A DNA stretch of 63,874 nt, filler included, from Kipferlia bialata (Eukaryota), in assembly GCA_003568945.1 (NCBI GenBank). It is 4 parts of 4 records of this genome, joined end to end, with 100 filler letters (N's around TTAATTAATTAA, not from the genome) between each part and the next. Parts side by side here need not be neighbours in the genome. Positions count along the whole stretch, not along the records: positions 1 to 31,041 come from BDIP01000115.1; 3 more parts are not named here. One strand, 5' to 3'. Shown piece by piece: positions 1 through 63,743 of the stretch. The translations under genes were made by a program, and so were the position numbers. The notes below the pieces were generated by a model. The model was not told where the DNA came from, did no database searches, and was given only the letters and a program-made list of their open reading frames with translations. Position 1 is the stretch's first letter, and every line of letters begins with the position of its first letter.

Positions 1-7
1 CATATAC

Positions 8-55
<48 letters not shown>
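1..55. repeat. (CATATA)n intronic microsatellite
   Basis: Direct tandem hexamer repeat just before the acceptor tgccag at 61-66. Confidence 0.9.
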
Positions 56-66
56 CCCGATGCCAG

Positions 67-3923: not shown

Positions 3924-3930
3924 CTCTCTG

Positions 3931-3985
3931 ATTAGGACTTACTAGGACTGACTAGGACTGACTAGGACTGACTAGGACTGACTAG
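3931..3985. repeat. 10-bp minisatellite (ACTAGGACTG)n
   Basis: About 5 tandem units directly after the helicase stop codon. Confidence 0.85.
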
Positions 3986-8800: not shown

Positions 8801-9376
8801 TCGTGTCCCAGGGCTGTGTCCTGGGGGCATGCCTCGACGAACCTGACCAGACACGAGGCCATGGAGGGTAGGTGCGGCACACAGGAGGGGCCAAGGTGGG
8901 TGGCCACAAGGCCGATGCACCTGGCGGCAGAGCGGAGGGCTGGGGTGAGCAGAGGTGGGACAAGAAGACATAATGAGACATATTGAGACATATATAGTGA
9001 GAGGTGGCATCACGGCTCCCATACAAGCACAGGTCTCCACCCACCATTGGGCCCATGCACAGTGTCCGTGGCAGACACAGCCTCTAGGAAGGCGCCCAGG
9101 GCAGAGGGAGAGAGGTCTCTGACAATGGATTCAAGCTCGGCATCTGACAGATGAGTATATAGTACACTCTGTACTTCATGGACTGCCATGTACACATGGA
9201 TATATATATATATATATATACATCCATACCCACACCCACCTGATCTCTGTCTGGTTGAGAAGTCTGTGCTCTTACCAAGGGCCTGGGGTGAGACATGGAA
9301 CCCTGGTCTATATCACAGCACAGTGACAGATACATACCGTCTGTGTTGCCTGCAGAACATCCGACCTACGACCCAT
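5829..9376 (-). CDS. TORTIFOLIA1/SPIRAL2-like microtubule-associated HEAT/TOG protein, multi-exon
   Basis: Spliced N-terminus MGRRSDVLQATQT/ALGKSTDFSTRQRS/DAELESIVRDLSPSALGAFL. Also EGARFDRISHVREAVLESL (cf. plant EACRFDKIKPVR motif), a coiled coil ending VETRVEGLEKRV, and C-terminal GDVYSAALSSPDPLSVVQTCIRTGPVLHLLS (cf. plant LLVKLMDRSGPVLDQLS). Comparison is from memory. Confidence 0.8.
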
Positions 9377-9756
9377 ATAGAATCAGTGTCAGTATCAATG
9401 TCTATGGTCCATAGGCCATAGGGCGGCAGATTGATACAGAGGCAACAGTGACCCTCACTGAAGAGGGGGCTAAGCATCTCTCTTCTGCAACAACCTGAGA
9501 AATTTCCTTTTGCTTTTCGGAGAAAGCCAACTCGCTTGCCACAAGCTCTTGGTGACCTAATTGTATAACATCATCTGAATGGTACATTGTCTCCCTTCCA
9601 TGTTTGTGTTACAAGACAAGGGACATGCAATAGGAAACACTGTCTGAATAGCCCTGAACCACACGGATATATGGTACACATTTATGGACTGACATGCAAC
9701 CAGGCTAGTCCGGATATGTTCCTGTGGCTATGCACTCCACTCAGTCTCTGGGAGTC

Positions 9757-12652: not shown

Positions 12653-12854
12653 GTGCCACAAGGGGTCAGCCAAGACAGAGGCGGTCACAGCGAGCAATTG
12701 CGACCCGTCTTGGTGAATAGATGGCAGTTGAGGTAAACAGTAAGCTCAGGCTTGACTCAGGCCCTATACAATATTGAGGGTTTGTCTAAGCTTAGATCAT
12801 CAAAAACTGGCTCATTTCTGTCTGTCACTGATCTTCCCTTCTACCCAGTCTCCG

Positions 12855-15484
12855 ATGGCCAAGCCTGCCAGGAGCAAGCACTCCAATGCGCCCCAGGGGG
12901 AGGCATCAGGGAATATCTGGGTGTGTGTTCGAGTGCGCCCTTGGGATGGGAAGGGGGCCAGCCGGAGTCTCTCTGTCAACGAGACCCAGCCCATTATATC
13001 TCTGCTATCTGAGGACAAGACCAAGGGCCACAAGAGGCAGAGCAAGTTCCAGTACAACCACGTGTTCGATGAGGGCAGCTCCAACAGGGATGTGTACGAG
13101 CAGGTTGGGGTGGCAGCCCTGACTCAGGTGGGTATATGGTTATTATTAGAATGGGTCTTGTGACCTCTAGAGAGGCCACTGCTGCATTTCCCTGCTCCTA
13201 TCGTATATGTATCTATTACACACTGCCAGTCCATCACCCAGTGGATGGAAGGTTAATGGAATCCTCTTACACTGGGACATTATTATAATATACTGATTCC
13301 AGGTGTTGGACGGGTACAACTCGACCATATTTGCCTATGGTCAGACCGGCAGTGGCAAGGTGAGGGAGGGTGTCCGTGTGTGTGAGTGCATGTCAATCTG
13401 TGTTGGTTCCATGCACATATGTGTGTCCCATGTCTCCCCCCAAGGTATACCCACCCCAGACCCACACCATGCTTGGCAGCGATGCCCAGCCAGGAGTGAT
13501 CCCCCTCCTAGGACAGGCCCTGTTCAAGGAGATCCAGGCCAAGCAGACCCCCAAGCAGAGCAGGGAAGGGGGGGGCACCACCAGAGACCAGGCAGAGTAT
13601 AGAGTGACGGTGTCATACCTGGGTATGTGCCACACTCACCCATGTGTACATATACACTCACATATATGTGTGGATATCTGTATGCATGTACCTTCCTATT
13701 CCACATTGAGACTGTCAGTACGCCTGCACATACTCATGTCTTCGTGTAGCTCACCAATGTCTCTAAGTACACCATATTCGATCGTCTAATATACTCTGTA
13801 TCCGTATTGTAGCATCCTCCAGCCATGGCTTGATCTCTAGAGGTGTATATGTACCTTACATATACCTCTGATGACACTGCCACCCATCCCAGAGGTGTAT
13901 CAGGAGCAGGTCCTGGATCTGCTGGAGCCGGGTAAGCAGCCCCTCCGGCTCAGGGAGCACCCGTCCTTGGGTGTGTTTGCAGACGGTCTAGCCGAGGTGG
14001 GTTGTTCTATCCATATCCATATCCATCTATATATATGTCCATCTGTATATGGCATCCCCCTCACTGTCAGGTCAGGGTGGCAACGGCAGACGACGTGGCC
14101 CAGCTTCTATTGCAGGGGTCTGCGGTGCGCAAGGTGGCCTCGACGGATATGAATGACAGGTACACTATGGATAGTACTAACTGGGACATGTATCTATGGG
14201 TACAGTATACGTATATATATATATGCAATTATGTATGACACATGTGTATACACTGCCCCCACCCCCCATGTACACTGACGCCAGGAGTAGCCGCAGCCAC
14301 GCTGTGTTCATGATGAGGGTGCAGCAGAGACACGTCTCTAGGACCAGGGGGGAGGGGGAGGGGGGGAGGGAGAAGGAGAGCGTGTCCACCATGTCTGCAC
14401 GACTGTACCTGGTAGACCTGGCTGGCAGTGAGAGTGTGCGAAAGACCAAGGCCACTGGGCAGACCCTGAAGCAGGGTGCATCCATCAACAGATCTCTGTT
14501 TGAGCTGGGCAATGTCATCAATGCCCTGTCCTCCGGCACAAAGAGACACGTCAACTACAGGTACGGTGTCAGTAGCTATAACTAGCTGTACTGATACTGA
14601 TACTGATACTGATACTGAGACACGTCAACTACAGGTCCAGGGGTGTGTGGATGTGTGTATGGTATATGCCCTTCCCCCCCTCCCGCTCACCCCCCAGAAA
14701 CAGTGCCCTCACCATGTTGTTGAGAGACAGTCTGGGGGGGAATGCACGCACAGCAGTGGTGGCCACTGTGAGTGCAGCCCCAGTGCATGCCCCAGAGACC
14801 AGGACCACGCTCATGTTTGCATCCAGGTATGGGGTGGTATGGTGTAGTGTGTGTGTCCACCTCGGTGGATGGGTGTGTGCAGTGTGTGTCTGTGTATGTG
14901 TATGTATGCCATCTGACCCCAGGGCCAACACCATCCAGGTCAAGGCGGTGCGCAACATGGACACCACAACCAGGTGGGGGGCAGTGTAGTGGGGGGGCAT
15001 TTGTAGGCTGTAATTGTATTGCTAGGGTGTCAGATGTATATGTTATGTTCAATGCCTTCTGCTCTGCTATTAGTGTGGTCACGTCGTAGTGTGTATATCG
15101 CTGTATGTGTAGATCTGCCTCACCCCAGGGTCATCTCTGAGCTGAGGGCCGAGGTCACCAGGCTGAAGCAGCTGCTGCAGGGGGCAGGGGAAGGGGGGGA
15201 GGGGGCCAGTGCGGATCAGGCCCAGGAGGTCGAGGTAGGCGGTGTCGTACTGACTGATACTGATACTGATACATACTGTGAAGTGCAGTGGTGTATATCT
15301 GGTTGCTGGCGAACAGAGGCTTGAATTGTATTCCTTTGTATATCCCTCTGCCATTTTTCCGTCGCACACAACACCTATACCCCCCTCCCCCCAGGCCGTG
15401 CTGGCTGCCCTGGACCTTGCCAAGAGGGCCTCCTGGGACTATGACACATCGTCAGACGAGACCCAGCGACAGGGGGCACTGCAG
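12855..15484 (+). CDS. N-terminal motor kinesin (kinesin-3-like), multi-exon, runs into gap
   Basis: IWVCVRVRP, FQYNHVFD, P-loop IFAYGQTGSGK/THTM, LRLREHPSLGVFADGL, switch I SSRSHAVF, switch II LVDLAGSE, SALTMLLRDSLGGNARTAVVATVS, and neck RVISELRAEVTRLKQLL. Confidence 0.95.
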
Positions 15485-17078: not shown

Positions 17079-18827
17079 CTAGTTCTCCTTGTTCTGAACA
17101 ATGCTGAGCTGCCTCTCCCTCCACATCTCCCCAAACACACCGCCCTCCTGCTCGGCTAGCTCTCTGGGGACACCCTGCTCTACAGCCATACCGGCATCAA
17201 GCACAATGACCTGTGGTGAGGTATTTGAACACATCCATATTCATATACACAAGATGGGTAGGGTATTAAGAGAGAGACGTCCATACCGGCATCAAGCACA
17301 ATGACCTAGAGGGTAAGAGAGTGTGTAAGAGAGAGAGAAAGAGGGAGAGAGAGAGAGAGATACTGCTCAACAGCCATACCGGCATCAAGCACAATGACCT
17401 GTGGTGAGGTATTCACACACACAAACACACACATATATATATATACTAGGTAGAATAATGGATGAGACAGAGAGAGAGAGACAGCGATACAGTACGGCAT
17501 CAAGCACAATGACCTAGGGGGTAAGAGAGAGAGAGAGAGAGAAATACTGCTCAACAGCCATACCGGTATCACGCACAATGACCTGAATTGAGATGTACTA
17601 GGCATGGTATTAAAGGAGAGAGAGAGGGAGAGAGTGTGTATTCTGATACCTTGTCGATGATGACAAATAGTGGGTCTGTGTCAATATATATAACAATATG
17701 GGGATTGATACCTTGTCGAAGTCGATGATGGTCTCCAGCCTGTGAGCAATGGTGATGATGGTGCACCCCAGTTCACTGAACATGGTGTTGAGCACAGACT
17801 GGATCCTCTCATCGTTGTCCCTGGGGGTTAGGGGTATATACTATATACAGTCCATATGCATATAGAAAAATATATACAGGGTGACATGCAAAGACGTACT
17901 ATTAAGGCAGTCACATACCAGTCATGGACACAACCTAAATGTGTATTTCATAAATATCATCTGTATCTATACTATTAGTATCTATATACCTGTCCACGTT
18001 GGCCGTAGCCTCATCTAGGACAATGACCTTGGAGTCACGCAGCATGGCCCTGGGGGGTCAGAGAGAGAAAGATAGAGGTATATACATATTAGTGATAATA
18101 CACACTCTATACATACCTGGCCAGACACACCAGCTGCCTCTGCCCGGCACTTAAGTATATATATATAATAATATAATATATGTATATGTATATAATAGTG
18201 TTAATATATGTATATGTATATAATAGTGTTAATACATACCTGGCCAGGCACACCAGCTGCCTCTGCCCCGCACTGAGGTTGGACCCCCCAGAGGCAATCT
18301 CGATGTCAAGGACGGCAGAGAGAGGGTCAGAGGTCTGGAGGGTGAGGGTCTACAGCAACCACTAATATGTATAGGTGAACACATTACCTCTGGGACTGGT
18401 GCCACACCAGATGTCTCTCCCTCTCCCTCTCCCTCCATAGGCTCTCCAGGTCCAAGGGGTGTGGCTGTCTCAGCCACGTCTGCACCCTCTCTCTCTCCCT
18501 CTCCCTCTCTCACCATGCCCACCCTGTCCTGGGCCCAGTCCAGCAGGTTCACCTGGGGGTTAGTGAATTCATATGTATATACATATACAGAGGCCAGTCC
18601 AGCAGGTTCACCTGGGTTAGTGCATACGAATATCCATATATACAGAGGCCAGTCCAGCAGGTTGACCTGGGGGTAACATAGGGAACGGAATACAGACTGA
18701 TACTGGATATAGAGGGGTATGTTCATATACTCAATTATGCACATATATATGTCCTGGGCCCAGTCCAGCAGGTTCACCTGGGGGTTAATGTAAACAATAT
18801 AATATATATGTGTGCATATATATAGAT

Positions 18828-18859
<32 letters not shown>

Positions 18860-21800
18860 GGACTATCTGCACAAACATACCTGTCTCAGTGCCTGCACCA
18901 GCTGTGTGTCTGAGTACAGGTGGGATGGGTCCAGGTTGTTACGGAGGGTGTCGGTGAAGAGGGTGGGGTTCTGGGCCACAATGGTGATGGCCTGGGGGGT
19001 TAGAGAGTGATTATCACACTACTATCACAGAGAGAGAGACAAGAGAAAGACTCCCACACTCCTTAGGCGGTGCATTCACCCGGTAGTGTCTTACTATATG
19101 TAATAATATGCTAAGTACATACCCTCCTCAGGTGGTGCAGTCCCACCGATGTGATGTCCACCCCGTCCAGCTCAACTGTACCACTCTCAATGTCCAGGAG
19201 GCGGAACATGATGTTGGCCGTGGTGCTCTTGCCTAGGGGTAAGAGAGAAGAATACTAGGAGAAGTATAGAATATAATAGATAACACTGTATATTGAAACA
19301 GATCTTGGCTACAAGGTCAGAGGCTACTCTTCAGAATTTCAACTAGGACTCTCTGAAACACAGTACAAACCATCTCTCACCTGATCCTGTCCTGCCCACC
19401 AGTGCCACTCTCTGGCCAGCCTCGGCCTCGAAGGAGAGGTCCTGCAGTGAGGGATACAAACATACTACATACAAACACATTTACATGTGCGTGTGAGGTA
19501 TACATGCACTTGCATACCTGCAGCACAAGAGGCAGCTCGGGCCTGTATCTGGCAGAGACAGACCGGAAGGACACCTGGGTATGAGAACACCCTACACTAT
19601 ACATTGTATTGTGCTATTGTGTGAGGATCTCCGCGGAAGCCTCACCTTGCCTGTCTGTGGCCACAGAGTACACAGGTATCGTAGTGTGGTATACATATAT
19701 ATATATATATACACTAATAATATGAAACAGATGCTCTCTCACCTTGCCGGTCTGTGGCCACATTGGGTCGTCTGAGGGCAGGTTCCACTCTGGCTCCTGG
19801 TCTGGGTCGTTGGTGTACTCAAGGACCCTCTCGACTGAGGACAGCTCGGCCTGGGGTGAGGGAATGTATATATATACAATACATCTAATATATATCAATT
19901 ATCCATGTAGTATATGACAGCTCGGCCTGGGGGTGAGGGAATACTGTGTTCAGTCAAGATTCACTTGAATAGATATGTATACTATGAATAATACATAATA
20001 GACAGCTCGGCCTGGGTAAATACCAAATAGCAAGTCCATAGCATAGTCCATAGCATACATGACCCTACCTCAGCAATGCTGATGCGCCTGATGAGCCATC
20101 CCAGGGACTGGGAGGTAGAGAGACCTGGGGTGTGGAATATAGTAATGATATACCTATGGACAGCCCAGTACACATAATTATACCTGTGGATAGAGCCATG
20201 TTGGTGGGTGTGCCAAGTCTCTCTCCCTATCTCTCCCTCTCTCCATATTAATATATATAGGTATATACATATTCATATGTATATATATGTATACCTGTGG
20301 ACAGTGCCAATGCTGCCATGTTGGTGGGTATGCCAAGTCTCTCTCCCTCTCTCTCTCTCTCTCTCGATATATATACTCTACCTTGATATATATATATATA
20401 TATATATACGTATATACACATATATACCTGTAGATAGAGCCAGGGCTGCCATATTTGTAGGTATGCCAGGCACCACAGCCACCAGCAGGGCACTGGTACA
20501 TGCGATGACAGAGGCAAGGGTCTCAAGTCTCACAGAGATCCACCTGAGAGTGAGACATCAACAATCACTACTCATTTCCTATCTCTCTATCAGAGTTTCC
20601 CATAAAGATAGTCTATTCTTCTCTGGTACCTGTTGTTTGACACCGAGACGTAGTTCATCTGGCCGTTCTTGTCCAGTCCCTCATAGAACCTGGGGGTCAG
20701 AAACACATACTTCCCTTTTTGTACATAGTGGGTTTACATAGAGAGTGACCACATTCATTCTTGTTACTCCACTGTACCCCTACCTATCTGTGAGCACTGG
20801 GATGTAGTCACTTGCAACACATACTTATCACAATATTCTATACAATAGCGGGTATATATATAGTATGCGTTCAATCACTCTACAGTACCATACCTATCTG
20901 TGCGCACTGGGATGTAGTCGTACCCACTATATACATATAGTAGCGGGTATATATAGAGAGTTAATACCACCACTCTATTCACTGCACCCCTACCTATCTG
21001 TGAGCACTGGGATGTAGTCGAGAGCATTTGTTAGAACTACACATATCAGATAGTCTGTATAGAGAGTGACACTGCTACTCTACCTATCTGTGAGCACCGG
21101 GATGTAGTCGTATGCCCTCAGGGTGGACAGACCTCCCAGGGTCTCAGTGGCAATGGAGAGAACGGGGGAGCGGGCAATGCTCTGAGGGTTAGGTCTTAGA
21201 CAATATTGATTATATGAACGATACATATGTACAATATACAGAATGACAAGGTTGAGAGGAAGTCCTCACCTCCAGCCTGAACAGCTCTCTGTGGCTTGAT
21301 CTGAACACGTTCAGGTAGTGGACGTATACGATGAGGGAGGGTACCACCACTGCAATGTAGTAGGGCGACACAACGCAGATTGCGAAGAAGATGGCGCCGA
21401 CCATCAGAGAGAACCTGGGAGTGAGAACAGCTCATAACAATTATTATATAATAGTATTAATTATATAGCATGAATATATGAGTATATAGTACATAATTAT
21501 AATAATACAATAATAATAATACACACCTCACAACCATGGAGACTTCAGGAGGCAGCTTCTCATCAAGGGAGAGCATGTCAGCACTGAACCTGGGGATGAG
21601 GGCATAGGTAGAGGGAGTATAGATATATATTCGTTAGTAGTATATGCCTCCCCACCTGTTTAGCACCCTGCCATACCTGGCATATATATACCTACCATAT
21701 ATATATATATATATATAGTGTATATATACCTGTTCAGCACCCTGCCTAGTGGCCTTGTCTGGAACCATACATACTATATATATACATACATACACAAACA

Positions 21801-22152
21801 TATATACATATGTATGTACCTGTTAAGTACTCTGCCGAGTGGCCTTGTCTGGAACCATGTGAGGGGTGCCCTAAGGAGTGTAGAGAGGAGAGAGGTGTGG
21901 AAGGCAGCAGAGGCACGCTGGCAGGAGATGCGGAACACAGTCTCACGGCTGAACACCGTAACAACACCTGGGTAGGTGAGGAAGGGGCTGAGAGCACAAC
22001 AATACTCATAAGATGTAAAAACACTCACTCATGTATCGATACCTGCGAATGATATGGCTGCGTACATGGCCACCAGGTACCCAGAGGAGTGCTCGTCACT
22101 GCCATCACCCACCCAGTAGGAGAGCCAGAAGGTGGCGCCTGGCATGAGAGAG

Positions 22153-22188
<36 letters not shown>

Positions 22189-22842
22189 CTGTATACCCCA
22201 CCTGTGTTGAGGACCTGTGCCATGACAAAGAGCAGTGCCATGAGGACTAGACCGAAGGGGGTGCCAAGGGCCTGGGGGGTGAGAGCGACGCAGAAACAAG
22301 AGAGTATATTTACACATACACACATAGACACAATAAATATAGAAGGGAGTGCCAAGGGCCTGGGGGGTGAGAGAGGGCTACACTAATGAGATATTATACA
22401 TATACATGCATATTCACACTGTATACATACCCTTCCATACTGGGCCCACACGGCCCAGGGCACCTTGCCCCTCCTCCTCGACTCCTCCACCATAATCTTG
22501 CCATCAGTCTCTCTCTCTCCCTCTGCCTCTACATCAGGGGTATCCATGTCAACATCCTCCACTCCCACTGCACCATCTTCCTCCTCCTCCTCCTCCTGCA
22601 CTGCCTCGGGGGTCTGGGAGGCATGGTCGACAACCTACGCGATGAGTAGGTGTAAATAGACACATATACATGTGTACTTAGCCGCCACTCGGGTAGGGAC
22701 ACACACATAGAGTAAGCAGTTACTCAGGGACACTGTCACTGAGCCTATACCTTGCCGTCCTCGAGAGTGAGCACTGTGTCCGCAAAGGGTGTGACATAGC
22801 TGGAGTGCGTGGCCAGGATCACAAGGGCACCCGCCTCGTCCC
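17079..22842 (-). CDS. ABCC/MRP-type ABC transporter, 3' half (end of NBD1, TMD2, NBD2), many short exons
   Basis: KIMVEESRRRGKVPWAVWAQY, WFQTRPLGRVLNRFSAD, RSPVLSIATETLGGLSTLRAY, RWISVRLE, ELSSVERVLEY, ARYRPELPLVL, Walker A GRTGSGKST, signature NLSAGQRQLVCLAR, Walker B VIVLDEATANVD, H-loop TIAHRLETI. Stop at 17079-17081. Confidence 0.95.
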
Positions 22843-22980: not shown

Positions 22981-22991
22981 CCCGGGCCCCC

Positions 22992-23422
22992 NNNNNNNNN
23001 NNNNNNNNNNNNNNNNNNNNNNNNNNNNNNNNNNNNNNNNNNNNNNNNNNNNNNNNNNNNNNNNNNNNNNNNNNNNNNNNNNNNNNNNNNNNNNNNNNNN
23101 NNNNNNNNNNNNNNNNNNNNNNNNNNNNNNNNNNNNNNNNNNNNNNNNNNNNNNNNNNNNNNNNNNNNNNNNNNNNNNNNNNNNNNNNNNNNNNNNNNNN
23201 NNNNNNNNNNNNNNNNNNNNNNNNNNNNNNNNNNNNNNNNNNNNNNNNNNNNNNNNNNNNNNNNNNNNNNNNNNNNNNNNNNNNNNNNNNNNNNNNNNNN
23301 NNNNNNNNNNNNNNNNNNNNNNNNNNNNNNNNNNNNNNNNNNNNNNNNNNNNNNNNNNNNNNNNNNNNNNNNNNNNNNNNNNNNNNNNNNNNNNNNNNNN
23401 NNNNNNNNNNNNNNNNNNNNNN
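22992..23422. other. Assembly gap
   Basis: N run flanked by poly-G. Confidence 1.
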
Positions 23423-23515
23423 CTTTCCCCTTTTCGCCCCGGGGGGGGGGGGGGGGGGGGGGGGAGTTACTAATAACAACATTAGGGATATGATATGACC
23501 ACTACTGCCCCTTAC

Positions 23516-24653
23516 CCTTGGGGTCAGGCCTCAGCCAGGTGTTCCTCTCGTGGAGGGCCAGGTCCATCTCCAGAGACACACAGGGAGACAGATCGGGGTC
23601 CACGACAACAGGCACACAACGAACGGGATGTGCGGCACTAGGTGGTGAGGACACGGAGTGATAAAGCGTAATAGAAGGGGTGGATTGTACTGGACTTAAC
23701 GGAAATGTAACTCAGACACTGATAGAATATTGCAATTGTTGAGTAGAGACAATACGTACAAGTAAGCTGGGGACGCTGGCCTGAAGAGCATCGACGACCT
23801 GTTGGGCAGCTTCTGTCTGCGGGGGTCTCTGAACACAGCCTGTGCAAAGGGGACCTGGTTGCGCTTGGCCCCGTCTCTCCACCTCACCCTCCCTGCGCCC
23901 TCTGGCACCGTGGCATGGGCCCCAGTCAGCCTACGGCGCACCTCGCTCCTGGAGTCTGGCTCTGGGGCCATGGTCTCTGGCTGCGGCAGCATCTCCACCA
24001 CGTTGAGGAAGGAGTTGCGGTGCAGCTCCTCCTGGCTGGACAGCACCATCCCGCTGATGTCCCCAAAGATGTCCTTGAACGCCCCCCTCTCCCGCCGCAC
24101 GGTCTGGGCCCAGTTGTTGAGCTGCCTCCTGAACGAGGGCAGGGGGTCAGCGTTGAACCGCTTGGTGGCAATGTACTGCAGGGCACGGGCTGGGGGCCAA
24201 TGGAATCGGTGGACTAAGAATGCAGCCAACACTATCACGGAGCGGCTGCTGCCATCCATAGAGTGGACCAGGATGCACTGGTCAGAGTCAACTGCCTCAG
24301 TAATGAAACGTACACATGCATCCATGTTACGGCCAGCTGGGTCGAAAACTTCTGTTGCAGGGTCATCTGCCCACTTGAAGGACAGATACCGCACGCCAAC
24401 GCTGGCAAACCGGTTGGGAAACTCTTGGGCACAGCAATTGACCACATGAGTAATGGAGTTGGAGAAGATGAAGTCTTCGTCCTCTGCGGCCATATATGAG
24501 CCTACGAAAATACCTGGGGTCAGAATACAGCAACATAAATCCACCATCAGAGAAGGGTATTGTCAAGCGTAGAGCACGGAATACAACCACCACTACAAAT
24601 AACTCACCATCAATGATGCGGTTAGCCAGGAAGAGAGGCACACCATTGTCCAT
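23516..24653 (-). CDS. Dual-specificity-phosphatase-fold protein with catalytic Cys replaced by Ser (pseudophosphatase)
   Basis: Exon 1 24653-24608 (MDNGVPLFLANRIID), intron, then GIFVGSYMAAED..ITHVVNCC..VRYLSFKWAD..ILVHSMDGSSRSVIVLAAFL..SFRRQL. A further exon lies at ~23516-23638 with uncertain frame. Confidence 0.85.
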
Positions 24654-25175
24654 GATGAAGTCAAGCCACTAGTCCTTCGTTTGCGGGCCGTGGAGCGGTC
24701 AAGAGTATCCAGACTCAGAGTAAAGAGCCCTTAGATAGCTTACACCCAAACTTTATCACACAGGGGCAGCCTACAGCCTTGTCTGCTTTGAGATTAAGGC
24801 AGCTGATCTCTCAGAGAGTTTGGCAGAGAACCCTTAGTTGTTTTTGTTGTCAATCTGAGCTCAAGGACCTGACACAAAGAAAAGGCCCTCATGCATCACT
24901 GCATAAACATAACAGCATTAAACAATCGGCATCTAATGGTCTATTGGTGGGTATACACAAATGAGTATATACTGCAGCGTGAAGTGCTGCATACATAAAG
25001 AGCTAGAAATGTTGGCATCATCATCCAGATGATTGGAATCACAGAGACAACCTGTCTCCGTATCCCACAGATCAACCACAGCTTGGGTTGAACACATAAG
25101 AACAAAACAATTATACAGAAGGGGCCCTGTCTGCTGAAGGGCTGCTACATGGATACACTCCCTAGTGCCGAACGT

Positions 25176-40162: not shown

Positions 40163-40489
40163 CCCTGAGGGGGGGGGGGGGAGACACGCTCTGGTGATTA
40201 CAATACGTACCAGCCAGACACAGTGGTCGCCTAGAAGATTCTCACTATATTACGTTGATTGGGATAGAGAGCATCACAACAGTCACTAAGTTGTGACATG
40301 GGTTTTTGTGGAGAAGGGTCTTGTCTACACTCCTCTTTTCACTGGTCAGTGACTGGGCATTCTCCTTTCGCAGAGGCTTCAGAGAGGCTTTGCTCTACAC
40401 AGCTTGTAGTTGTGTGAATCGTCAATTAATGATTTGCCAAAGGAATCCTTCCGAGTCTAGCTACCAATAAGACAGGTGCAAGTCACTTC

Positions 40490-49653: not shown

Positions 49654-49757
49654 CTGGGGTGAGGGAGGGTAGGGAGGGGGGGGGGGGGGCACCTGCCAAG
49701 AAGGGGATCACCCNNNNNNNNNNNNNNNNNNNNNNNNNNNNNNNNNNNNNNNNNNNN

Positions 49758-49769
49758 TTAATTAATTAA
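49758..49769. other. Artificial contig linker TTAATTAATTAA
   Basis: Same 12-mer within N runs. Confidence 0.95.
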
Positions 49770-49813
49770 NNNNNNNNNNNNNNNNNNNNNNNNNNNNNNN
49801 NNNNNNNNNNNNN

Positions 49814-49898: not shown

Positions 49899-49999
49899 AT
49901 CAGCATCTAATCCTTCGTCTTCAGACTAGAGTGAGAATCCGTGAGTACAAGATAGTCGTTAGCCGGTAATCACCTCTTTGCGTTCGGACCATTGACATA

Positions 50000-51589: not shown

Positions 51590-53776
51590 CTAGTACACAT
51601 CAGTCCCCACCACCTCCTCCAGTGCACGTCTGGTCTGCACAAGCATGTCGCTGATGCTGGTGACCTGGGGTTAGATCGGATACACTATAGGTACACACAC
51701 AACTATAGATGTATACATGCTGGGTAAGCATGTCGCTGATGCTGGTGACCTGGGGTGAGTACAGAGAGAATATAGAATGTATAGAACATTATTGTCGTCC
51801 TTCCATATCTGTCACTAACATATATATATATATAGACTAAACTATACATATACACTACATACCTGGTCACTCGAGTACTTGATGTGGTCGTCCTTCCACC
51901 AGTACAACAAGCACATACAAATATATATATATATTAGGAGAGAGACTAATGCCTATATATATACCTGGTCACTCAAGTACTTGATGTGGTCGTCCTTCCA
52001 TGTAGTCCCACTCAGCACACTGTCACTCTGCCTCTCCCGCACACGCTCCATCTCCTAGGGGTTAGACACATACATACATTTATGCATATATATATACACA
52101 CATATATATATGGGTGTCTCTCCCGCACACGCTCCATCTCCTAGGGGTTAGATATTTAGACAAACAAAAATCTATGGTTTATAATATTGATAGATGCGTG
52201 TGTGTGTGTAATTTATAGCGTATGAATGTGTACCTTGAATGACCCTGTCTCGAGCTGTCTCTCCAGCTGCTCTACCTTGCTCTCCCTGTCTGCACCTTCC
52301 TCCCGCATGGCACCTAAGGTAAGGGGTATATACAGTATGATAGATATAGTGTATAATATCATGCATAATATCATATATATATATGTGTGTGTGTGTGTAA
52401 TCTCCACGTCTGCACCTTCGTCCCGGACGGCACCTCAGAGGTGAGGGGTATATGCTTTGACACACACACATATATATATACTATAGAAAGACCAGATTAA
52501 CGTCACTTGGGGGTTCGGCGTACAGATACACTCACACAGTGTGATATACATACTATATGCACTATATATAAACACCATACCTATCTCGCGTTGCAGGGCA
52601 CCGATGCGTCTGAGTAGCACGGCAGTCTCACTCTTGGTGTCACCTGGGGGTGAATGAGTGTGGGCGGACCAAAACTATTGTGTCTATATGGATGTATACA
52701 CACACCCAGGTCCGACAGGCACTGTGCCTGCCACCAATGTACATACAGAGTATAATGTACACCACTATTCAGGTATATACCTAGGTCCGACATGCACTGT
52801 GCCAGTCTCATCTGCTGTAGGTGGGTGTCAGCCTGGTCCTCACTGGCCACGGTCCTGGGGGGTAAGATACTCGGGATAATGTATGTGTGGAACACTATAT
52901 AATGTGCTTGTACTCAATTCAATTGACCACAACTCTATCGTGAGTATATGGAGTCGCAATGCATACCTGTACTTGGCTGCCGTTCTCTTGGACTGCCTCA
53001 GTCTCTCGGTGTCCTCCTCCAGCACAAGCTCAAACTGAGGGGTCAGTAACAGTGGGAACACTAATATATATGTATATATACATATATATGTATATTTAAA
53101 ACTACATATGCCATTGATGTCCTCTTATAGCACTGTTTATATACACTATATACCTCCTCCCTCTCTGCCTGTCTCTCCTCCACAGCATGTGTCAGCTCTA
53201 TCACTGTGGTGTGTAAGGCACTGGCCATGACCTCATCCCTGGCCCTGGTGGCTAATATGCTCTGGATGTTAGGTTATATGTGTACATAGATGTATATATA
53301 TGTACCTCTGGGGATTAGGGTTTGTATACACATATGTATATAAACATATGACCTTATCTCTGTCCCATGTACCCCATATAATTATATGCACACATATGCA
53401 TCTTACTATATTATTATACTATGCATATTTTTTTACCACTCAATAAGTACAAGTATATCTTCCTCTACCTCGCACCACCACCTCCTCTCTGTCTCGTACT
53501 AAGCATACAAATGTATATATAAATAGAAAGAGAGGGAGAGACTATATAACCATGTCTCACCTCGCACCACTGCCTGCTCTCTGCCTCATGTACCCCATAT
53601 ATATCACCACATATGTACTATAGTATCAACCCTTACCTCGCACCACTGCCTGCTCTCTGTTTCATGCACCCCCACCCTGGCCAGGAACTGTTGGAAGACA
53701 GATATGATGAGAGAGGCCTCCTTCTGGGTGGGGGTCCGCTTCCTAGTGACGTCCTGAAGACCTAGGGGTGAGGGGG

Positions 53777-53827
<51 letters not shown>

Positions 53828-56800
53828 GCCTCCTTTTGGGTAGGAGGCCTCTGTCTAGTGACATCCTGAAGACCTGGGGTAAGGACGGGTACGCATGTAT
53901 ACAATAAACTGCGTAGAAAGATCAGTATTATACCTCTGATGAGCTGCACCAAGTCTCTCTTCCTGAGAGGTGTAAAGGGGGGCAGGAGGGAGAGAGCATC
54001 GTCGGAGACAGTCTCATCAGGACTGGGGGAGGGTTCATATGTGTACTTCCTCTCTCCCTCTCTCTCCCCCTCCCCCTCTCCACTCTCTAGTGCAGTGTCA
54101 GTCTCTGAGACCTCACCCCCCTCAACCTGCATCACACTCACTACCCTACCCGCAGTGCCTGTACTGGCAGTGGAGGCACCCCCCTCTCCTTCCCCTCCCT
54201 GGCTGAGAAGGGAGGGTAGGAACACAGAGACAGAGGGTATACGGGTCATGGCACCATCCTCCTCTCTCTCCCTCTCTGATCCTGTAGAGCGAGAGTGAGA
54301 GGGAGAGAGGGAGACAGACCGCGAAACGGTGCGGGTGCGAGACTCGGAGCGTCTCTCCGCTGGGGACACCGTCCTCTCTCTCTCTCCGTCTCTCTCTCTC
54401 TCCTCACTCTCCCTACCCCTCTCCTCCTGTATAGTAGTCTGACCCCACAGGGAGGGAGTGCCAGGGAGAGACAGACCAGCCACATAGCCGCTGCCCCAAT
54501 CACCCTCCCCATCCCTCTCTCTCTCTCCCCCCATGCCTAGGGTATCAATGAAGGCACGCATCTGCTCCTGGGAGTCACTAACCCCCTTGCTACCCTTGCT
54601 GGAGTGGCCGAAGGGTAGAGGGGGGAGGGCAGAGGTAGATCCTGCCCCAGAGGCAGAAGGGGAGGGAGATGATTCATTAACCCTCTCCACACTATCTCTC
54701 TCCCTCTCATTCTCTCTCTCCCCCTCCGTCTCCACACTAGCAGAGGCCCCTGAGACATCAGCAGATGCATCCACTACCCCCCTGTCCCCACTGTCATTGT
54801 TAGAGAGGGCAGGACTCTCTGAAGGTCCACTCTCTCCCTCCCTCTCTGTCTCTGTCTCTCCCTCTCCCCCTGTCTCCCTCGCCTCACTGCCGACAGCAGA
54901 TGCAGAGTGAGAAGACTCCATGGCATAGCGAGATTCAGAGAGTGTTTGCTCCCGATACTGTGACTCAGTCTCCTCAGTCTCCTCATAGACAGGTGAGGCA
55001 TCCTCTCTCTCCCCCTCTCTCTCTCCCTCTCCCTCTTCCCCTCCGAACCCAAAGATACCCCCAGCCCCATTCTGCACCACACTGCTAGTACCCCACACTG
55101 AGTCAGGCACACCCTCACTGGAGGCATCTCTACTCAGGGTGACCTCTCTCTCTCTGCTCACAGTCTCAGTGCGTGCACTACTCTCTCCCTCTACACTCCC
55201 TACACTCTCTGTACTCCTTAGGGTCTCTCTAGACCCTCTAGTCTCTCTAGTCTCTCTAGTGTCTGCCCCCGGTGGTCTACTTGTCACAGAGGCCATACTA
55301 CTGTGCATATCTAGCAGAGCCCTCTCCATGGCACTCTCTCTCTCCCTCTCTCTCTCCCTATCTCCAGTATTGTCAGATACTGTACCCTCCTGACCATCTA
55401 GGCCCTCCCCGAAGCTGGGCTCAGTACCAGCCCTGAGGCAGGCCTGGGTGTGAGTACAGGTAGAGAGAGAGCCAGATGTAGAGAGATACACCTTGATACC
55501 TGTGGCGTGTATGCCATGTAGGGCATTGATGGCAGGACAGCAGGGGATGGGGCATATACAGGGGCACTACTAGACGGTATAGATGGTATGACCACACTCC
55601 CCGGTGGCACAGGTGCAGCCCCAGACACTGTGGGTGTATCCCTCTTCTCGTCCAGTATCCTCTTACCCAGTGAGGCCAGGAACTGACTCAGAGTGTCATT
55701 GCTAGTGGCACTCTCTCCCTCCTTCTCCTTGCCCCCCTCCCTCTCCCTCTCCCTCTCCCTCTGGTCGAATATCATCAGGGGTGAGTGTGTGGTCATGATG
55801 GAGGGACGGGCAGGGGGTCTGGTGGGGGAAGACACCTCAGCAGCAGGGGTAGGGGCAGCAGCAGGGGGGACTTCTCTCTCCACCTCTCTCTCTCTGTGTA
55901 TCTCTCTCTCCTGGTGAGTGGGAGGCATAGCTCTCGACCCCTGCCGCCTCCCCCTCTCCCTCCCTCTCTCTCTCCCCCCCTCTCTCTGTGTGGGCTGGGG
56001 CTGCGCTGGGGGGTGGGGAGAGTACATCGCCTGGGGGGCATGCACTGGTTCGGCCGCTCTCTCTCTCTCCCTCTCCATGTCTCCCTCTCCCCCTGTCTGG
56101 GTGGGTACCTGTGTCGTCAGATACATAGACACTGCCGCAATGTATCAGAATACTACATAATCACAGAACCCTACCTGCCCTGTCACGAAGAATGACATGT
56201 CCTCTCTGACCCACTATTCCTTAACCCATTACATGTATATGTGTATGTGGCCACACACTAGATATACATATAAATATAAATACATGAGTATACACACCTG
56301 CCCCGTCATGAAGAATGACATATCAGGTGCCGCAGAGTCCAGGTGCCTCTCTCTCTCCACCTCAGCGTCTCTCTCTCTCTCTCTCTTGGTCTCCAATGGG
56401 GGTTGAAACTCCACACTCATGCTGGGTCCAAACATACCCCCTCCCTCCTGCTCCCCTACCCCTGCCAGGCCCATGCGCCTCTCCACCACTAGTAGCTCTC
56501 TCTCCCACTGCTGTCTCTCCCTGGGATCAGTGTCATACATACATACACATAAATTGCACATACACTACTCTTTGTACATGCATCAGTGGTCTATGCATGC
56601 TATATCATATTAGACAAAACTGTCATTTTTCCTATACACATTACATACCTGTCCCCCCACAAACACTGGAAATATACAATTATAACATATATATATGTAC
56701 ATCCACACTCTATACCTGTCCCCCCTGCGTCTCTGCAGGGTAGTGACATTAATACATTCATTGTATATATACCCTAGTATTGATACTTGTATCAGTAGAG

Positions 56801-57073
56801 GTATATATATACACATTACAAATACCTGTCCCCCCTCCGTCTCTGCAGGGCTGCTGCGATATCCCTCTGTTGTCTCTCTGTGATGCTGGAGTTGTATGCC
56901 AGGGACAGAGACCCCAGGCCACACTCGGTGCTCATAGCCACAGCCATGGCGGCCTGGGAGTGGGTCCACAAACAATATTTCTACATATAGAATTTAGATT
57001 ATACAATGATTACTCTGTGTACATATACCTTTGATGTCCTGAACCCCATGCCGTTCCTGTCCAGCGAGAGAGC
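51590..57073 (-). CDS. Large uncharacterised protein: E/R/S-rich low complexity with C-terminal coiled coil, multi-exon, 5' end missing
   Basis: Long exons (~53934-55441, ~55500-56107) and many short exons ending ..WKDDHIKYLSDQ/VTSISDMLVQTRRALEEVVGTDVY* (stop 51590-51592). Confidence 0.65.
51641..56850 (-). repeat. Splice-junction echo repeats in the 51.6-57 kb gene
   Basis: Copies at ~51727, 51860, 52118, 52408, 52705, 53467/53558, 53822, 56172 and 56646/56713. Confidence 0.88.
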
Positions 57074-58453: not shown

Positions 58454-61400
58454 TCACTCGTCGCCTTCGGAGTCCGAGTGCAGCTCAGTTGGAGAAGACT
58501 AATCATTCTATTCATTGCCTCCAATGGATAGTTATAATACTAGTTCTATTTCTTTGTGGACTCTATTAATTCAGTCCTCACCCTCTGAGTCTGAGTCCAG
58601 CTCCGCGGGGTGTAATACTAGAAATGTATCTATTTAGTATAGAAACCAAGTCAGGCGGGAACTTCCCGCCTGGCGGGTAGTCTTTGTACTCAGTCCTCGC
58701 CCTCTGAGTCCGAGTCCAGCTCAGTAGGGTGTGTCGCAAGGACAGGTCTCTTCACGGCACATGCTGTGACAGGGGAGGTGGGGTTGGGGGCCTTGCCCAT
58801 GTACACGGCAACGGTCTCACGCATCATGCTGATACATTAGAAAAAAACTCATTGTAGGGTATATTATATAGCCGCTATATATATGTGTGTGTGAATGGAT
58901 TTCCGAGTGTACTCGAATGGTCAGAGCATCATGCTGATACATGAGAGAGCAAAAGAGAACAACATTGTAAGGATATATGTGTGTGTGAATATGGATTTCT
59001 GAGTACCGAGACTTTGTGTTTCTGTAGTACATCAATATCCCAGTATAGACTTCCTAGGTTGTGATATGGGATAATAATAATATGATAATAATACAGAGAC
59101 TTATCAGTACCTTCTGACCCTATCTGTAGGATTCATGGACGAGCTCGCTCCCTTGAGATACACCAGTGTGTACTTGAGAAACTGCTCCAAGGTTAGACTC
59201 CCTCCCTTAGACGCCTTCTTGTTCATGATAGACGCCCTGCGGATCTGGAGTGAGGGAAGATTCTTACAGTATATAGTATTCCACAAAGTATGCGTGACAA
59301 TAGTATGCATATATATGTAGACATACCCTGTGTGACACCGACTGCATCAACAGGCAGCACAGCTCAATGAGGGAGTATATATGCAGTGTATACACTATAT
59401 AGTATAGAGTAAGCAGTGGATATACCCTGTGTGACACCGACTGCATCAGCAGACAGCACAGCTCAATGGGGGTGTAACCAAAGTGGACATATATACTATA
59501 TCTCCTATACTATGTATATACTGTATATACTCATATACATACCTTGTTGGATACCGACTGCATTAACAGGCAGCACAGCTCAATGGGGGTGTAGTCAAAG
59601 GGGACACTGGGGTCACTGCCCAGGTCAAGCACCTTCTGAAGATCAGATTCCAGTAGTAGTTCATAAACTAAAGAACAACTATATAGTATAATAATATATA
59701 CATACTCATAATGATGCTTACGAGTGTGACTGCCCAGATCAAACACCTTCTGACATCAGTATCTACACGAGTAACTGATGTATCTACACGAGTAACTGAT
59801 GTATACTGATTGACAGTATTAGTAATTATTAAATTACCTTCATTCCGAAGCGCTGTGTCAGTTGGGTGATGTACTTGATGGCGTTCTCTGGGTTATTGGC
59901 GACCACCCCCGGCTTGCACGGGTTGAACGTGGCTAGGAAGGGGTCGTTGGCGGGAACCAGTCTTTGTGCAGCTGATTGAAGAATGGGCATCATCAGAAGG
60001 GGGTTGATGTACTTGCAGGTAAGGACTGTGATCGGTATCCATCCCTAGGGTCAGTATATGAGGCACACTATGATCCTTCTGGACTCTTTAGAAGTTCCAA
60101 ATTAGAACTATAGTGTCAATGAAAGGGTGTCACATCACTTAGAGAATGCTAGTTGAGTACATATATACATAATTTACCTTGTTGAAGCTGGCTCCTATCA
60201 GCCTAATCCCTCCCTTGTGCATATGTGCCACAGACCCCAGAACCTCCAGGCTCTCATTGATTAGCTCTAGTCGCTCTGAGCTCCTCTTGGCTTCTGGGAC
60301 GTCTGGCACGTCTGGAGCGTCTGGGACGTTTGGGACGTCTGTACGGTACCTCACACTGTGTGAGGCGACACTGATGTTGTGGAATGTCTTGAGTAGTCTG
60401 TCCTGGAGTCCAGACATGATACGCCTCCATGACAGGAAGTGCAAGAGGGCAGTGTTGGAGGATATGTCCTCGCTGTCACCCTTCTCACTCCCTGCTAGAA
60501 CGGCCTTGTCGGTGGCAATGTCTGCCCTGAGGGAGACAATCTGTATTGTAAGAGGTGTATGTGTACATGACAATATTTAGAGAGTCATATACATGACAGT
60601 GGCAATGTCTGCCTTTAGGGATGCTACCTGGAGAGTAAGAAGTATATGATATATATATGACTATGTGTACATGACATAATGTATAGAGAGAGACTTTTAT
60701 ATGGCAATGCCTGGCTTGCGGGTGGCTACCTGCTGAGTGAGACAGGAGTAAACTAAGTTATGATAGTACATCACTCTTATGAGGGGTTATGACATCAGGG
60801 ACACTATCTGTACTAGTACCTGTGATGGAAGGGAGGGATACAATGCAAATACATAACGTATGCGGTCTCAAGTACTATATAGTACTTCATAGTACACTGG
60901 TACCCTCCGCACCCCTATCCACCTATGTATACATATATACATGTGTATATACATACATATACATATACATAGATACATACATACTATTTACGCATTATAG
61001 ATATACTCGATATAATGCCTTGGCAGGATCTGCATCGTTGCCATCTATATATGTATGTACATATATATATGTTTGTGTGTGTGTGCGTGTTTTTATGTAT
61101 ATACAGAATGTAACTACAGATACTATATACACTATATATCATAGACTACCTTAGCAGGATCTGCATCTGTGTCCGCCCCTGCCCTCCTGGCCAACCGCTC
61201 CTGGGCATTCTCAAGCTTGAGAGTGACTATCTTGCGATGCAGCTGTATTAGCATGGGGTACGGAACATGCATATATGGCGTTGGTATATGCCAGTAACCG
61301 CATGTCATCAATTAGTCAATCTATCAATACATGAATTCATCACACCTGCAGTGTCTTTCTGAACCCAGCCTTGAACGGAGGAAACATTCCACTCTGAGCC

Positions 61401-63743
61401 TCGTACTCCTCAGGGTATACGCACAGGAAGGTGGGGTCAGACTCTAGGGCCTAGGGTCAGTGTATACTCTGAAGGAATTCTAAAAAGAAATACATACTAT
61501 GTACACAGCATATTCTATCTATATTGTACTATACATATATGTATTAATATAATCTCACACATATGCACAGGAAGGTGGGGTCGGTCTCAAGGGCCTAGGG
61601 GTGAGGATATACCTAACGCATTGGTGGGAAGTACTTATATTATTTATTTTTACATATATATATATTATTATTATTATATATATATAGGGACGAGGGGTCA
61701 CTGTCTAAGGCCTAGGGGTGATAATACTGGTAGTCTTGATGTAAATGTACTACATACTGTAAGAACACATACACACATACACACATACACACATATATAT
61801 ATATATATATACAGGAATACGGGTTATCTCTCTAGGGTCTATAGATGAGACAACATACTGAACCAGTGACTATATACAATATTAGTATACTTAATACGTA
61901 GGGACCAATCACCGTTCCTCAATCAGCTGAATGACAGCCAGGGCAGACTGGTTGTGCAGAGCTTAGGCCTAGTAGATATATACATATATACACTTAGAAT
62001 ACAAACTCCTCTAAACACAGTATATATGTATTGTACCTCTATCAGCTGTATGACAGCCAGGGCAGACTGGTCATCCACACACCCCTTGGCTACCAGTGAG
62101 TGGAAGGTGGCGTCGAACACAGCGTGCTTCTGGAGGTAAGGTATATATATATACTGATGAGTGTACATCGAATACATAGAAATATATATACTACACTTCT
62201 ATATACTAAGGAAGTGGAAGGTGGCATCGAAGACAGTGTGCTTCTGAAGGCAAGGTACAAATATACTAGTGAGTGTATACATCAACGAATACATAGAAAT
62301 ACATATACTGTACTACTCTATACTGGGTGGCAATTAGTATTCACACTAGTACAGAGTAACAATATATTAGGGTCGCAATAATATGTGCACGTACGTGTAG
62401 GATATATGCACCAGGCTCAAATGTTCCGGCTGCAGGCTGCTTGAATAGCTCTCCAAACATCTCTCTGACACTCACTGCCACCTCTGCCACATTGGACAGG
62501 GTGAGGGTGTCTGGGGTTAAGAGTATCATTCATTATATGCATATATGCATATAGTGCTGGAGATGCCACCTCTGCTACATTGGACAGACTGAGGGTGTCT
62601 GGGGTTAGAAGGATCATTCATTATCACTATATATATATGTGTGTACGTGTATGTATATATCCATACAAATATATAGTTGACGGCCACCTCTGCTACATTG
62701 GACAGGGTGAGGGTGTCTGGGGTTAATAGCATCATTATATATGTAATATATATATATGTACATTATCACTGCATATAGAAACAACATAAATAGTGCTGCC
62801 ACCTCTGCCACATTGGACAGGGTGAGGGTGTCTGGGGTAAGATACATATAGTGATGCACTACATATACATTATGCAAATATAGTGTTATAGACAACCTCA
62901 AACACATTCGAGTGGGTCAGGGGGTCAGGTGTTAATAGATGTAGCAATCTAGAGAGGTATAACAATATAGTGTCGGACACAACATCACACGTGTTGCCCA
63001 AGTGTATCTATATTAGCGAAATTTATATACCAGATAGACAGATAGTAGCAGTATACCGGATAATACAGTCATTTCCGAATTCTCGAATGTAAGAGTGGAT
63101 AGTGTCCGCGAGTATATAGATAGGCTGTCACCGAGTACACTTGGAGACAAGGATATACAAAGAGACATGTACCTATTGGCATGGGAGGAAGAGGATGGTT
63201 CGATTGTATCCACTTGGCATCTCTGGTTGTGGACACTAGACGCCTGGTGCGTCAGTAACTATATAAACGTTATATACTTTATACAATCAACATACATAGA
63301 CGCCTGGTGCGTCAGTAACTATTTCAACGTTATATACTTTACACAATCATTACACCTAAACGCCTGGTGCGTCAGTAACAATCTAAACGTTATATACTCT
63401 ATAATAATCAACATAATAATCAACATAAACAAACGCCTGTTGCGTCAGTAATTGAGGCTATACATACGAGGCCTACTCTATGATGTAATCTAAAAACAAC
63501 TTCGATAGAATAGATAGACTACTAGAGACTAAGAGAGACGTAGGAAATTGAGAATCCATATATCTCGGTATTTGGCGCATACATGAGTGACAGAATATGA
63601 TATGACAAGAACATTTGGTCTTCATCCACAAGATTAATCATATTGTACTATAATTTGCATTGACAACAAGCCCATACGTACCTGGCATATTCGATGTATT
63701 GAGTCTCTACACGCCACCCCTCGGCACTGGAGAGACTGATAGT

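What the first reader, a model, noticed from the sequence alone, without database searches (positions are those of the whole stretch)
20184..20467. Strongest echo: 8 of 8 differences silent over 13 codons (GIPTNMAALALST)
The exon end at 20428-20467 (minus strand) reads GGC ATA CCT ACA AAT ATG GCA GCC CTG GCT CTA TCT ACA G|GT. The intronic copy at 20295-20334 reads GGC ATA CCC ACC AAC ATG GCA GCA TTG GCA CTG TCC ACA G|GT. That is 20% nucleotide divergence with an identical peptide, including a first-position Leu change. A third copy (20184-20214) is a mosaic of both with an in-frame 9-nt deletion, which suggests recombination among the copies.
Basis: seen in the sequence. Interest (0 to 1): 0.85.

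Follow-up and report, generated by a model that had tools for sequence, protein, structure and literature searches.

The report
Intron echoes of former exon alleles
In the free-living protist Kipferlia bialata, many introns hold short unused copies of the neighbouring exon end that differ from the working exon at silent positions more than twice as often as dead duplicates should, likely because they are leftovers of other working versions of the gene brought in by recombination between divergent strains.

Summary
Observation confirmed: an intron of a Kipferlia bialata ABCC transporter gene holds a 40-nt copy of the preceding exon end with 8 of 8 silent differences, plus a shorter third copy. 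DNA contigs carry the copies; the RNA contig uses only the first. It is the extreme case of a window-wide pattern: 52 echoes at 37 coding boundaries in 8 genes, two of them at a stop codon. Four-fold sites differ at 60 of 270, zero-fold sites at 49 of 1021: ratio 4.6, where a dead duplicate beside a constrained exon gives 2 (P about 1e-5; 0 of 450 simulations reach it). Flanking introns are mostly unalignable yet keep GT/AG (46 of 50). Best reading (inferred): echo and exon diverged while both worked, as alleles, and were joined by one-sided or unequal recombination. No donor haplotype was found; the one paralogue has a different peptide. The 'mosaic' third copy does not show recombination. 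The scan noted similar echoes in two other genomes and put their weaker silent bias down to exon-only selection; that explanation fails here. My literature searches found no description for Kipferlia.

The parts
20428..20543 (-). Working 116-nt exon of the ABCC gene; its last 40 nt (20467-20428) are copy 1
   Evidence: Model equals P0001 over 717 aa; spliced length 765 nt matches the RNA contig between two anchors
20125..20427 (-). 303-nt GT-AG intron that holds the echoes
   Evidence: RNA depth per bin fits cover of the exons only
20295..20334 (-). Copy 2: 40-nt echo, 8 silent differences, followed by GTATAC
   Evidence: DNA contig from 20332 down, 0 other letters
20184..20214 (-). Copy 3: 31-nt echo, 9-nt in-frame gap, one Ile>Thr change, followed by GTATAA
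   Evidence: DNA contig
20149..20163 (-). Probable copy 4: 10-nt echo plus donor, 14 of 15 letters as copy 2
   Evidence: read by eye
20335..20427 (-). Spacer 1 (93 nt): donor, (TA)n, (GA)n, CTT; same build as spacer 2 (20294-20215, 80 nt)
17079..22841 (-). ABCC gene, 21 modelled exons (5' part lost in the N gap); 18 echoes at 10 junctions, 29 silent and 11 replacement differences
21730..21768 (-). Second donor echo in the same gene, 4 of 4 differences silent
17281..17582 (-). Four acceptor echoes of the last ABCC exon, with two unlike but consensus-type acceptors
31993..34062 (-). eIF2B-type gene, 7 echoes (9 silent, 4 replacement)
51590..57073 (-). Unnamed gene C, 9 echoes (12.5 silent, 10.5 replacement)
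58454..62925 (-). Unnamed gene E, 14 echoes (33 silent, 26 replacement), two of them copies of the coding end with its stop codon in the 3' flank (58613-58571, 58492-58454)

Best explanation
The intronic copies are unused pieces of an exon end with its splice site, and they likely come from other working alleles of the same gene that were placed next to the resident allele by recombination between divergent haplotypes. Shown: copies exist in DNA, are skipped in the main RNA contig, are anchored at coding boundaries, and differ from the exon like one working gene from another plus about 5% decay. Inferred route: in a cell holding two haplotypes, only exons are alike enough to pair. A break inside an exon invades the other haplotype, copies through the exon end and splice site into the unalignable intron, and is rejoined without homology to the other broken end. 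The incoming exon end becomes the working one and the old end is stranded in the intron. Only events that run past a splice site or stop codon keep the reading frame, so survivors sit at coding boundaries. A variant route gives the same pattern: an ordinary small duplication, after which the working exon end is replaced by another allele. Later unequal exchange multiplies copies (copies 2 and 3 share a joint). The spliceosome uses the outermost sites and ignores the echoes.
For: 52 echoes, 1594 aligned nt: 85.7 silent and 56.3 replacement differences, pN/pS 0.21 against 0.5 for a dead duplicate; junction bootstrap 0.14-0.29. One echo per junction with the focal one left out: 56.5 against 34.5, P=0.0005. 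Four-fold 60 of 270, zero-fold 49 of 1021, P=1e-5 against a ratio of 2. Simulations through the same kind of local alignment give a silent share of 0.37-0.41; 0 of 450 reach the observed 0.60. Intron flanks exceed the 95th percentile of random intron pairs in only 13 of 52 echoes, and 3 of 11 that have no exon difference, yet 46 of 50 keep GT or AG. Splice signals carry 81 edits in 364 and 42 in 144 positions where a plain duplicate predicts about 35 and 14, and echo acceptors score 8.6, close to 9.0 expected from 5% decay alone. Echoes at a stop codon show a DNA-level, not splicing-level, origin. Fornicates lack Ku-type end joining and Rad51A and have two Dmc1 (PMC8516963, passages); Dmc1 stabilises mismatched joints (PMC6719624, short abstract).
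Against: No donor haplotype seen: X1 shows one version of the gene at 85% likeness or more, apart from a paralogue at 19150-19209; the echo motif has 0 matches in metagenome contigs. It needs silent diversity of roughly 12-20% between haplotypes, and about 70% at the focal copy, with sex or parasex that is not documented for this species in what I read. Echo-against-echo differences (22 of 44 silent) beat a fully neutral null (P=0.001) but not a serial-snapshot null (P=0.08-0.28). The splice-signal test is weak under the fair null with half of the edits on the echo: 84 of 2000 for acceptors, 331 of 2000 for donors. A five-fold faster silent rate in the working exon reproduces the silent share (82 of 150). 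Amino-acid changes are only marginally conservative (P=0.06). Echoes cluster by gene (29 of 60 introns in 8 genes chosen for them, 0 of 18 in 4 other genes), which the model does not explain.
Confidence: 0.52

Rival explanations
1. Working exons and their intron ends change about five times faster than an echo 100 nt away, for instance through error-prone RNA- or cDNA-templated repair, so echoes are slow snapshots of the exon's own past.
For: Exon rate x5 reproduces the silent share; differences shared by all echoes of a junction are 9 silent to 2 replacement; echo-echo test does not exclude serial snapshots. Transcript-templated repair is proposed for Carpediemonas (PMC8516963, passages).
Against: Needs intronic echoes to be slow while the intron DNA beside them is the most diverged part. 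No directional GC shift on the exon side: silent GC>AT 34, AT>GC 22, P=0.14. cDNA repair should remove introns, which are abundant (PMC5874029, passages).
Confidence: 0.14
2. Echoes are stumps of whole-exon tandem duplicates that were both used for a time as mutually exclusive exons, then lost one splice site.
For: Explains silent bias and working-type splice signals. The 7 letters before copies 2 and 3 also occur in the exon exactly 57 nt (19 codons) upstream of copy 1, as if copy 2 were a whole exon with an in-frame deletion. In three short exons the acceptor and donor echoes nearly meet.
Against: None of 52 echoes covers more than 67% of its exon or has both sites; lengths stay at 13-62 nt whatever the exon length; echoes occur at a stop codon; the RNA contig uses one version. 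The 7-letter match is partly a GA microsatellite.
Confidence: 0.13
3. Echoes are kept coding-competent by second-order selection: arrays collapse often enough that an echo becomes the working exon end.
For: Would act on both codons and splice sites; arrays do expand.
Against: Inference: a collapse rate high enough for selection to act would erase an echo long before 20% silent divergence builds up; two-way conversion on one chromosome gives pN/pS of 0.5 or more, not 0.2.
Confidence: 0.07
4. Plain tandem duplications across exon boundaries, with selection on the exon only, plus chance and picking the best case.
For: Known class (F7 intron 7 repeat, PMC1557585 abstract); explained the weaker bias in two other genomes in earlier scan notes; one 64-kb window, gene models C and E are mine.
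Against: 0 of 450 simulations reach the observed share; holds without the focal junction and with one echo per junction; detection used nucleotide scores only, control 0 of 720 at score 15 or more, 10 of 720 at 12.
Confidence: 0.08
5. Copied from a paralogue, or an assembly artefact that strings two haplotypes together.
For: A paralogue exists; the published genome is a short-read assembly (PMC5874029 methods section); the exon-to-copy-2 spacer is not bridged by a listed contig.
Against: Paralogue peptide differs at 3 of 13 residues; a single read-derived contig holds copies 2 and 3, their spacer and the next exon with 0 differences; depths are even (426-493) with no half-depth pieces.
Confidence: 0.06

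Closest known systems
Human F7 intron 7 37-bp VNTR (Borensztajn et al. 2006, PMC1557585; abstract read)
   Same: First unit spans the exon-intron boundary; downstream donor copies are intact but silent, the most upstream one is used.
   Different: F7 units are near-identical head-to-tail repeats at one locus. Here echoes are at 37 boundaries in one window, on donor, acceptor and stop-codon sides, with unalignable spacers and coding-type divergence.
Internal gene duplication and intron gain by tandem duplication (Rogers model; Gao and Lynch 2009 as cited in PMC4974935; passages read)
   Same: Short duplications inside genes that copy splice signals and leave the protein unchanged.
   Different: No new intron or exon at the focal site; divergence between copies exceeds what an intrachromosomal duplicate allows at silent sites.
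One-sided invasion / aborted synthesis-dependent strand annealing with end joining (Belmaaza and Chartrand 1994, seen only as a reference title in PMC4888836; mechanism recalled)
   Same: Homology on one side, non-homologous joint on the other, leaving a duplication.
   Different: Known from engineered breaks; here inferred as a recurring natural process between divergent alleles, with no donor in hand.
Tandem mutually exclusive exons (recalled)
   Same: Neighbouring exon copies that differ mostly at silent sites.
   Different: Those are whole exons with both splice sites and appear in mRNA; these are partial and skipped.

Membership tests
Splice-junction-spanning repeat (F7 IVS7 type) | First unit spans a coding boundary | tested here: met
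   47 of 52 kept alignments end exactly at or 1 nt from the exon end, the rest within 6 nt, which was also the keep rule
Splice-junction-spanning repeat (F7 IVS7 type) | Pseudo-sites intact but unused | tested here: met
   46 of 50 keep GT/AG; main ABCC RNA contig fits use of the outer sites only; minor isoforms cannot be seen in contigs
Splice-junction-spanning repeat (F7 IVS7 type) | Whole unit, intron part included, repeated head to tail | tested here: not met
   Flank likeness above the 95th percentile of random pairs in 13 of 52; the focal spacers 1 and 2 are among the alike ones
Splice-junction-spanning repeat (F7 IVS7 type) | Copy number varies between individuals | not testable with these tools
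   One sample only
Dead duplicate beside a constrained exon | Four-fold/zero-fold divergence ratio of 2 or less | tested here: not met
   4.6; 0 of 450 simulations
Mutually exclusive tandem exons | Whole exon with acceptor and donor | tested here: not met
   Largest echo is 67% of its exon
Mutually exclusive tandem exons | Alternative copy found in mRNA | tested here: inconclusive
   Not in the main contig; no other letters listed at the focal exon end; rare isoforms not visible
Intron gain by tandem duplication (Rogers model) | Duplication yields a new intron and a retained exon piece | tested here: not met
   One 303-nt intron at the focal site; spliced length matches RNA contig
Conversion from a paralogue | Paralogue with the echo's peptide | tested here: not met
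   KIPB_006631 reads GITESMAALALST; no other hit among proteins of 30-1799 aa; unannotated paralogues not excluded
One-sided recombination between alleles | Homology ends at the coding boundary, unlike sequence beyond | tested here: met
One-sided recombination between alleles | Coding-type divergence between the two pieces | tested here: met
One-sided recombination between alleles | A donor haplotype whose working exon carries the echo's letters | not testable with these tools
   No second strain; none in X1 or metagenome contigs

The most novel reading that the evidence does not exclude
Kipferlia introns are a fossil record of past alleles: a recurring, Dmc1-type one-sided recombination between highly divergent haplotypes swaps in new exon ends and strands the old ones, splice site and all, in the intron. 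One homozygous genome would then give both evidence of sex or parasex in a free-living fornicate and a direct estimate of past silent diversity, and would show a new route of intron growth.
Probability: 0.4. Interest if true: 0.85.

Novelty: new variant of a known kind. Interest (0 to 1): 0.66.

Why it matters
Duplicates that straddle splice sites are known, but a dead copy should not look like a purified coding sequence. Here the excess of silent differences is robust and the standard explanation fails, so something kept both versions working while they diverged. If it is allele capture, thousands of echoes in this 124,912-intron genome (PMC5874029) would allow tests of sex, population diversity and repair mode in a lineage that lacks Rad51A and Ku, from a single assembly. 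It also shows a spliceosome that picks the outermost of several intact sites in short introns, and it misleads annotation (an echo seems to be read into the paralogue's protein model).

Tried and rejected
No whole genome was held, so the count covers one window. No RNA holder was on record as RNA; X2 is a guess, but its contig is spliced at GT-AG joints. A closer view of RNA joints over the focal intron was not obtained; the focal joint rests on contig length (765 = 765 nt) and bin depths. Exact search for 23 nt of copy 2 in metagenome contigs: 0 matches. Earlier scan notes on this genome or sequence: none. Six of 58 alignment hits were dropped before counting: four not anchored at a boundary, one off-register duplicate, one whose working copy is uncertain. 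'Mosaic means recombination' rejected: three sequences cannot show it. RIP-like mutation rejected: copy 2 keeps CpA sites at replacement positions. Recursive splicing at AG|GT considered: it could make echo sites harmless but gives no codon bias and does not cover stop-codon echoes. The first splice-signal test (0 of 3000) put all edits on the echo and ignored indels, so it overstated the case; one search replaces it. The first echo-echo null was too low for serial duplicates. Literature searches listed nothing on such copies in Kipferlia; the library lacks most subscription papers and I did not open supplements.

Full report
Source and gene. A 48-residue exon of the gene matches KIPB_000914 of Kipferlia bialata, a free-living fornicate, at 100%. 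My 21-exon model (minus strand, 22841-17079) translates to 717 residues found letter for letter in that protein; Pfam gives ABC_membrane and ABC_tran, an ABCC-type half with its 5' part lost in an N gap. No whole genome was held, so everything below rests on this window.

The observation. Copy 1 (20467-20428, exon end) and copy 2 (20334-20295) differ at 8 of 40 positions, all silent; copy 3 (20214-20184) has a 9-nt in-frame gap and one Ile>Thr change. The codon before the copies differs non-silently (CCT against CTT). With the exon fully constrained and the copy neutral, 8 of 8 silent has P=0.0017-0.0032, about 0.01 after allowing for the 5 echoes with 8 or more differences. A DNA contig of run X1 covers 19122-20332 without a difference, at the same depth as its neighbours; the microsatellite between exon and copy 2 is not bridged by a listed contig. 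The spliced contig of run X2 has 765 nt between two anchors, exactly the model that uses copy 1 and removes one 303-nt intron; bin depths of 279 and 176 against a contig depth of 785 fit cover of the exons alone. Contigs do not show rare isoforms.

The third copy. Copies 2 and 3 share the same left joint and similar spacers. Four sites group copies 2 and 3, two group the exon with copy 3, two are deleted in copy 3. A tree ((2,3),exon) explains this without homoplasy, so the 'mosaic' shows no recombination.

It is general. An unbiased repeat scan showed junction-anchored repeats in several genes. I modelled 8 genes that have them and aligned the terminal 70 nt of each exon to the neighbouring non-coding DNA with nucleotide scores only; control pairs from other genes scored 12 or more in 10 of 720 and 15 or more in 0 of 720. 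Of 58 hits, 6 were dropped, leaving 52 echoes of 13-62 nt at 37 boundaries: 26 acceptor-side, 24 donor-side and 2 at a stop codon. They occupy 29 of 60 internal introns of these chosen genes and 0 of 18 introns of four other genes, modelled roughly. Genes C and E have no named relative here; their frames rest on open reading across GT-AG joints.

The silent excess beats the standard null. A dead copy beside a perfectly constrained exon gives pN/pS of 0.5. Observed: 85.7 silent and 56.3 replacement differences in 1594 nt, pN/pS 0.21, codon positions 36:20:86; bootstrap over junctions 0.14-0.29; nearest echo only and focal junction left out 56.5 against 34.5, P=0.0005; four-fold 60 of 270 against zero-fold 49 of 1021, P=1e-5 for a ratio of 2. 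Simulated duplicates passed through local alignment give a silent share of 0.37-0.41 and 0 of 450 reach 0.60; a three-fold faster exon reaches it in 2 of 150, a five-fold faster one in 82 of 150. Two genes do not show the excess clearly (gene C 12.5 against 10.5, though with few silent sites; the rubrerythrin-like gene 2 against 5). Results against a strong reading: echo-echo differences are 22 of 44 silent, above a neutral 0.25-0.28 but not above the 0.39-0.45 allowed if echoes are successive snapshots; replacements are only marginally conservative (P=0.06); 11 echoes have no difference where 3.9 are expected, so divergence is uneven.

The intron side. Flanks beside echo and working splice sites are more alike than the 95th percentile of random intron pairs in only 13 of 52 cases, and 3 of 11 where the exon part is identical; 46 of 50 keep GT or AG. 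With indels allowed, acceptors carry 81 edits in 364 positions and donors 42 in 144, against about 35 and 14 for a plain duplicate at the zero-fold rate. Echo acceptors score 8.6 (working 10.6; 9.0 expected from 5% decay alone); under a null with half of the edits on the echo, 84 of 2000 simulations reach this for acceptors and 331 of 2000 for donors. This is supportive but weak. The clearest case is the last ABCC exon, whose echoes with identical exon parts carry an acceptor that differs at 8-9 of 14 positions and is closer to the consensus than the working one.

Reading. Zero-fold sites bound the decay since the echoes died at about 5%. The rest, in codons, splice signals and flanks, looks like divergence between two working copies. 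In cis they cannot both have worked, since each echo has one splice site or none. A paralogue is not the source: KIPB_006631 reads GITESMAALALST, and X1 shows a second version only at the Walker A exon. That leaves alleles. The proposed route, all inferred: exons are the only pairing partners between divergent haplotypes; a break in an exon is repaired by copying from the other haplotype past the splice site and joining without homology; frame-preserving products have exactly this anatomy. An ordinary duplication followed by replacement of the exon end with another allele gives the same result, and I cannot separate the two. Fornicates lack Ku and Rad51A and have two Dmc1 (PMC8516963, passages), and Dmc1 stabilises mismatched joints (PMC6719624, short abstract and headings), which makes the route plausible, not shown. 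No donor was found, the diversity needed is high, and the clustering by gene is unexplained. Confidence 0.52; fast exon rewriting 0.14; former alternative exons 0.13; second-order selection 0.07; plain duplication 0.08; paralogue or artefact 0.06.

What is known. The genome paper reports 124,912 introns, and has 0 occurrences of 'duplicat', 'ploid' or 'heterozyg' in its main text (PMC5874029; passages and the assembly methods section read). PMC6679479 (passages) treats only the spliceosome of this species. The nearest described object is the F7 intron 7 repeat with silent pseudo-donors (PMC1557585, abstract); tandem-duplication models of intron gain are in PMC4974935 (passages). PMC4888836 gave only a reference title for one-sided invasion. 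Eight searches listed no account of such echoes in Kipferlia; subscription papers and supplements were not seen. Earlier scan notes describe junction copies in two other genomes with a weaker bias (43 of 107 silent in a sea urchin gene), put down to exon-only selection; that null is the one rejected here.

Verdict. Real, general in this window, a new variant of junction-spanning duplicates whose silent excess needs an explanation beyond the usual one. Interest 0.66.

Noticed in passing
P0002 (KIPB_006631), residues 322-353: The paralogue's annotated protein repeats MGLHHLRR around an intron-like stretch, as if an echo at the same junction as window echo 19088-19059 had been read into the gene model.
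   Followed up: no
window 24653-23514 and 22841-17079: The database protein P0001 fuses a dual-specificity phosphatase to the ABCC half across the N gap at about 22991-23422; probably two genes.
   Followed up: partly
window 31086-31097 and 57196-57207: TTAATTAATTAA spacers inside N runs suggest that the window joins three separate scaffolds.
   Followed up: no
window 60750-60526 (minus): The acceptor at 60526 is out of phase with the nearest upstream exon I could model; the echo at about 60628-60594 may be a used micro-exon, a possible intron gain in progress. Left out of the counts.
   Followed up: partly
window 32960-32885, 57743-57800, 59635-59543: In three short exons the upstream acceptor echo and the downstream donor echo are nearly complementary halves (overlap 7, overlap 5, gap 5 nt), as if a whole exon with flanks had been inserted into an older copy of itself.
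   Followed up: no
window 1-14500, 23500-28400, 29200-31000, 34100-51500: Genes here have almost no echoes; echoes cluster in a few genes.
   Followed up: partly
window 63236-63451: Non-coding array of about 60-nt units with a conserved 18-nt core.
   Followed up: no
window 31957-31943: 15-nt copy of the near-terminal coding sequence of the eIF2B-type gene in its 3' flank; dropped from the counts as not anchored.
   Followed up: no
window 61711-61686 (minus): An echo has AGT where the exon has TCT (both Ser) and a sister echo has ACC (Thr): a serine codon-set switch, suggestive of protein-level constraint.
   Followed up: no
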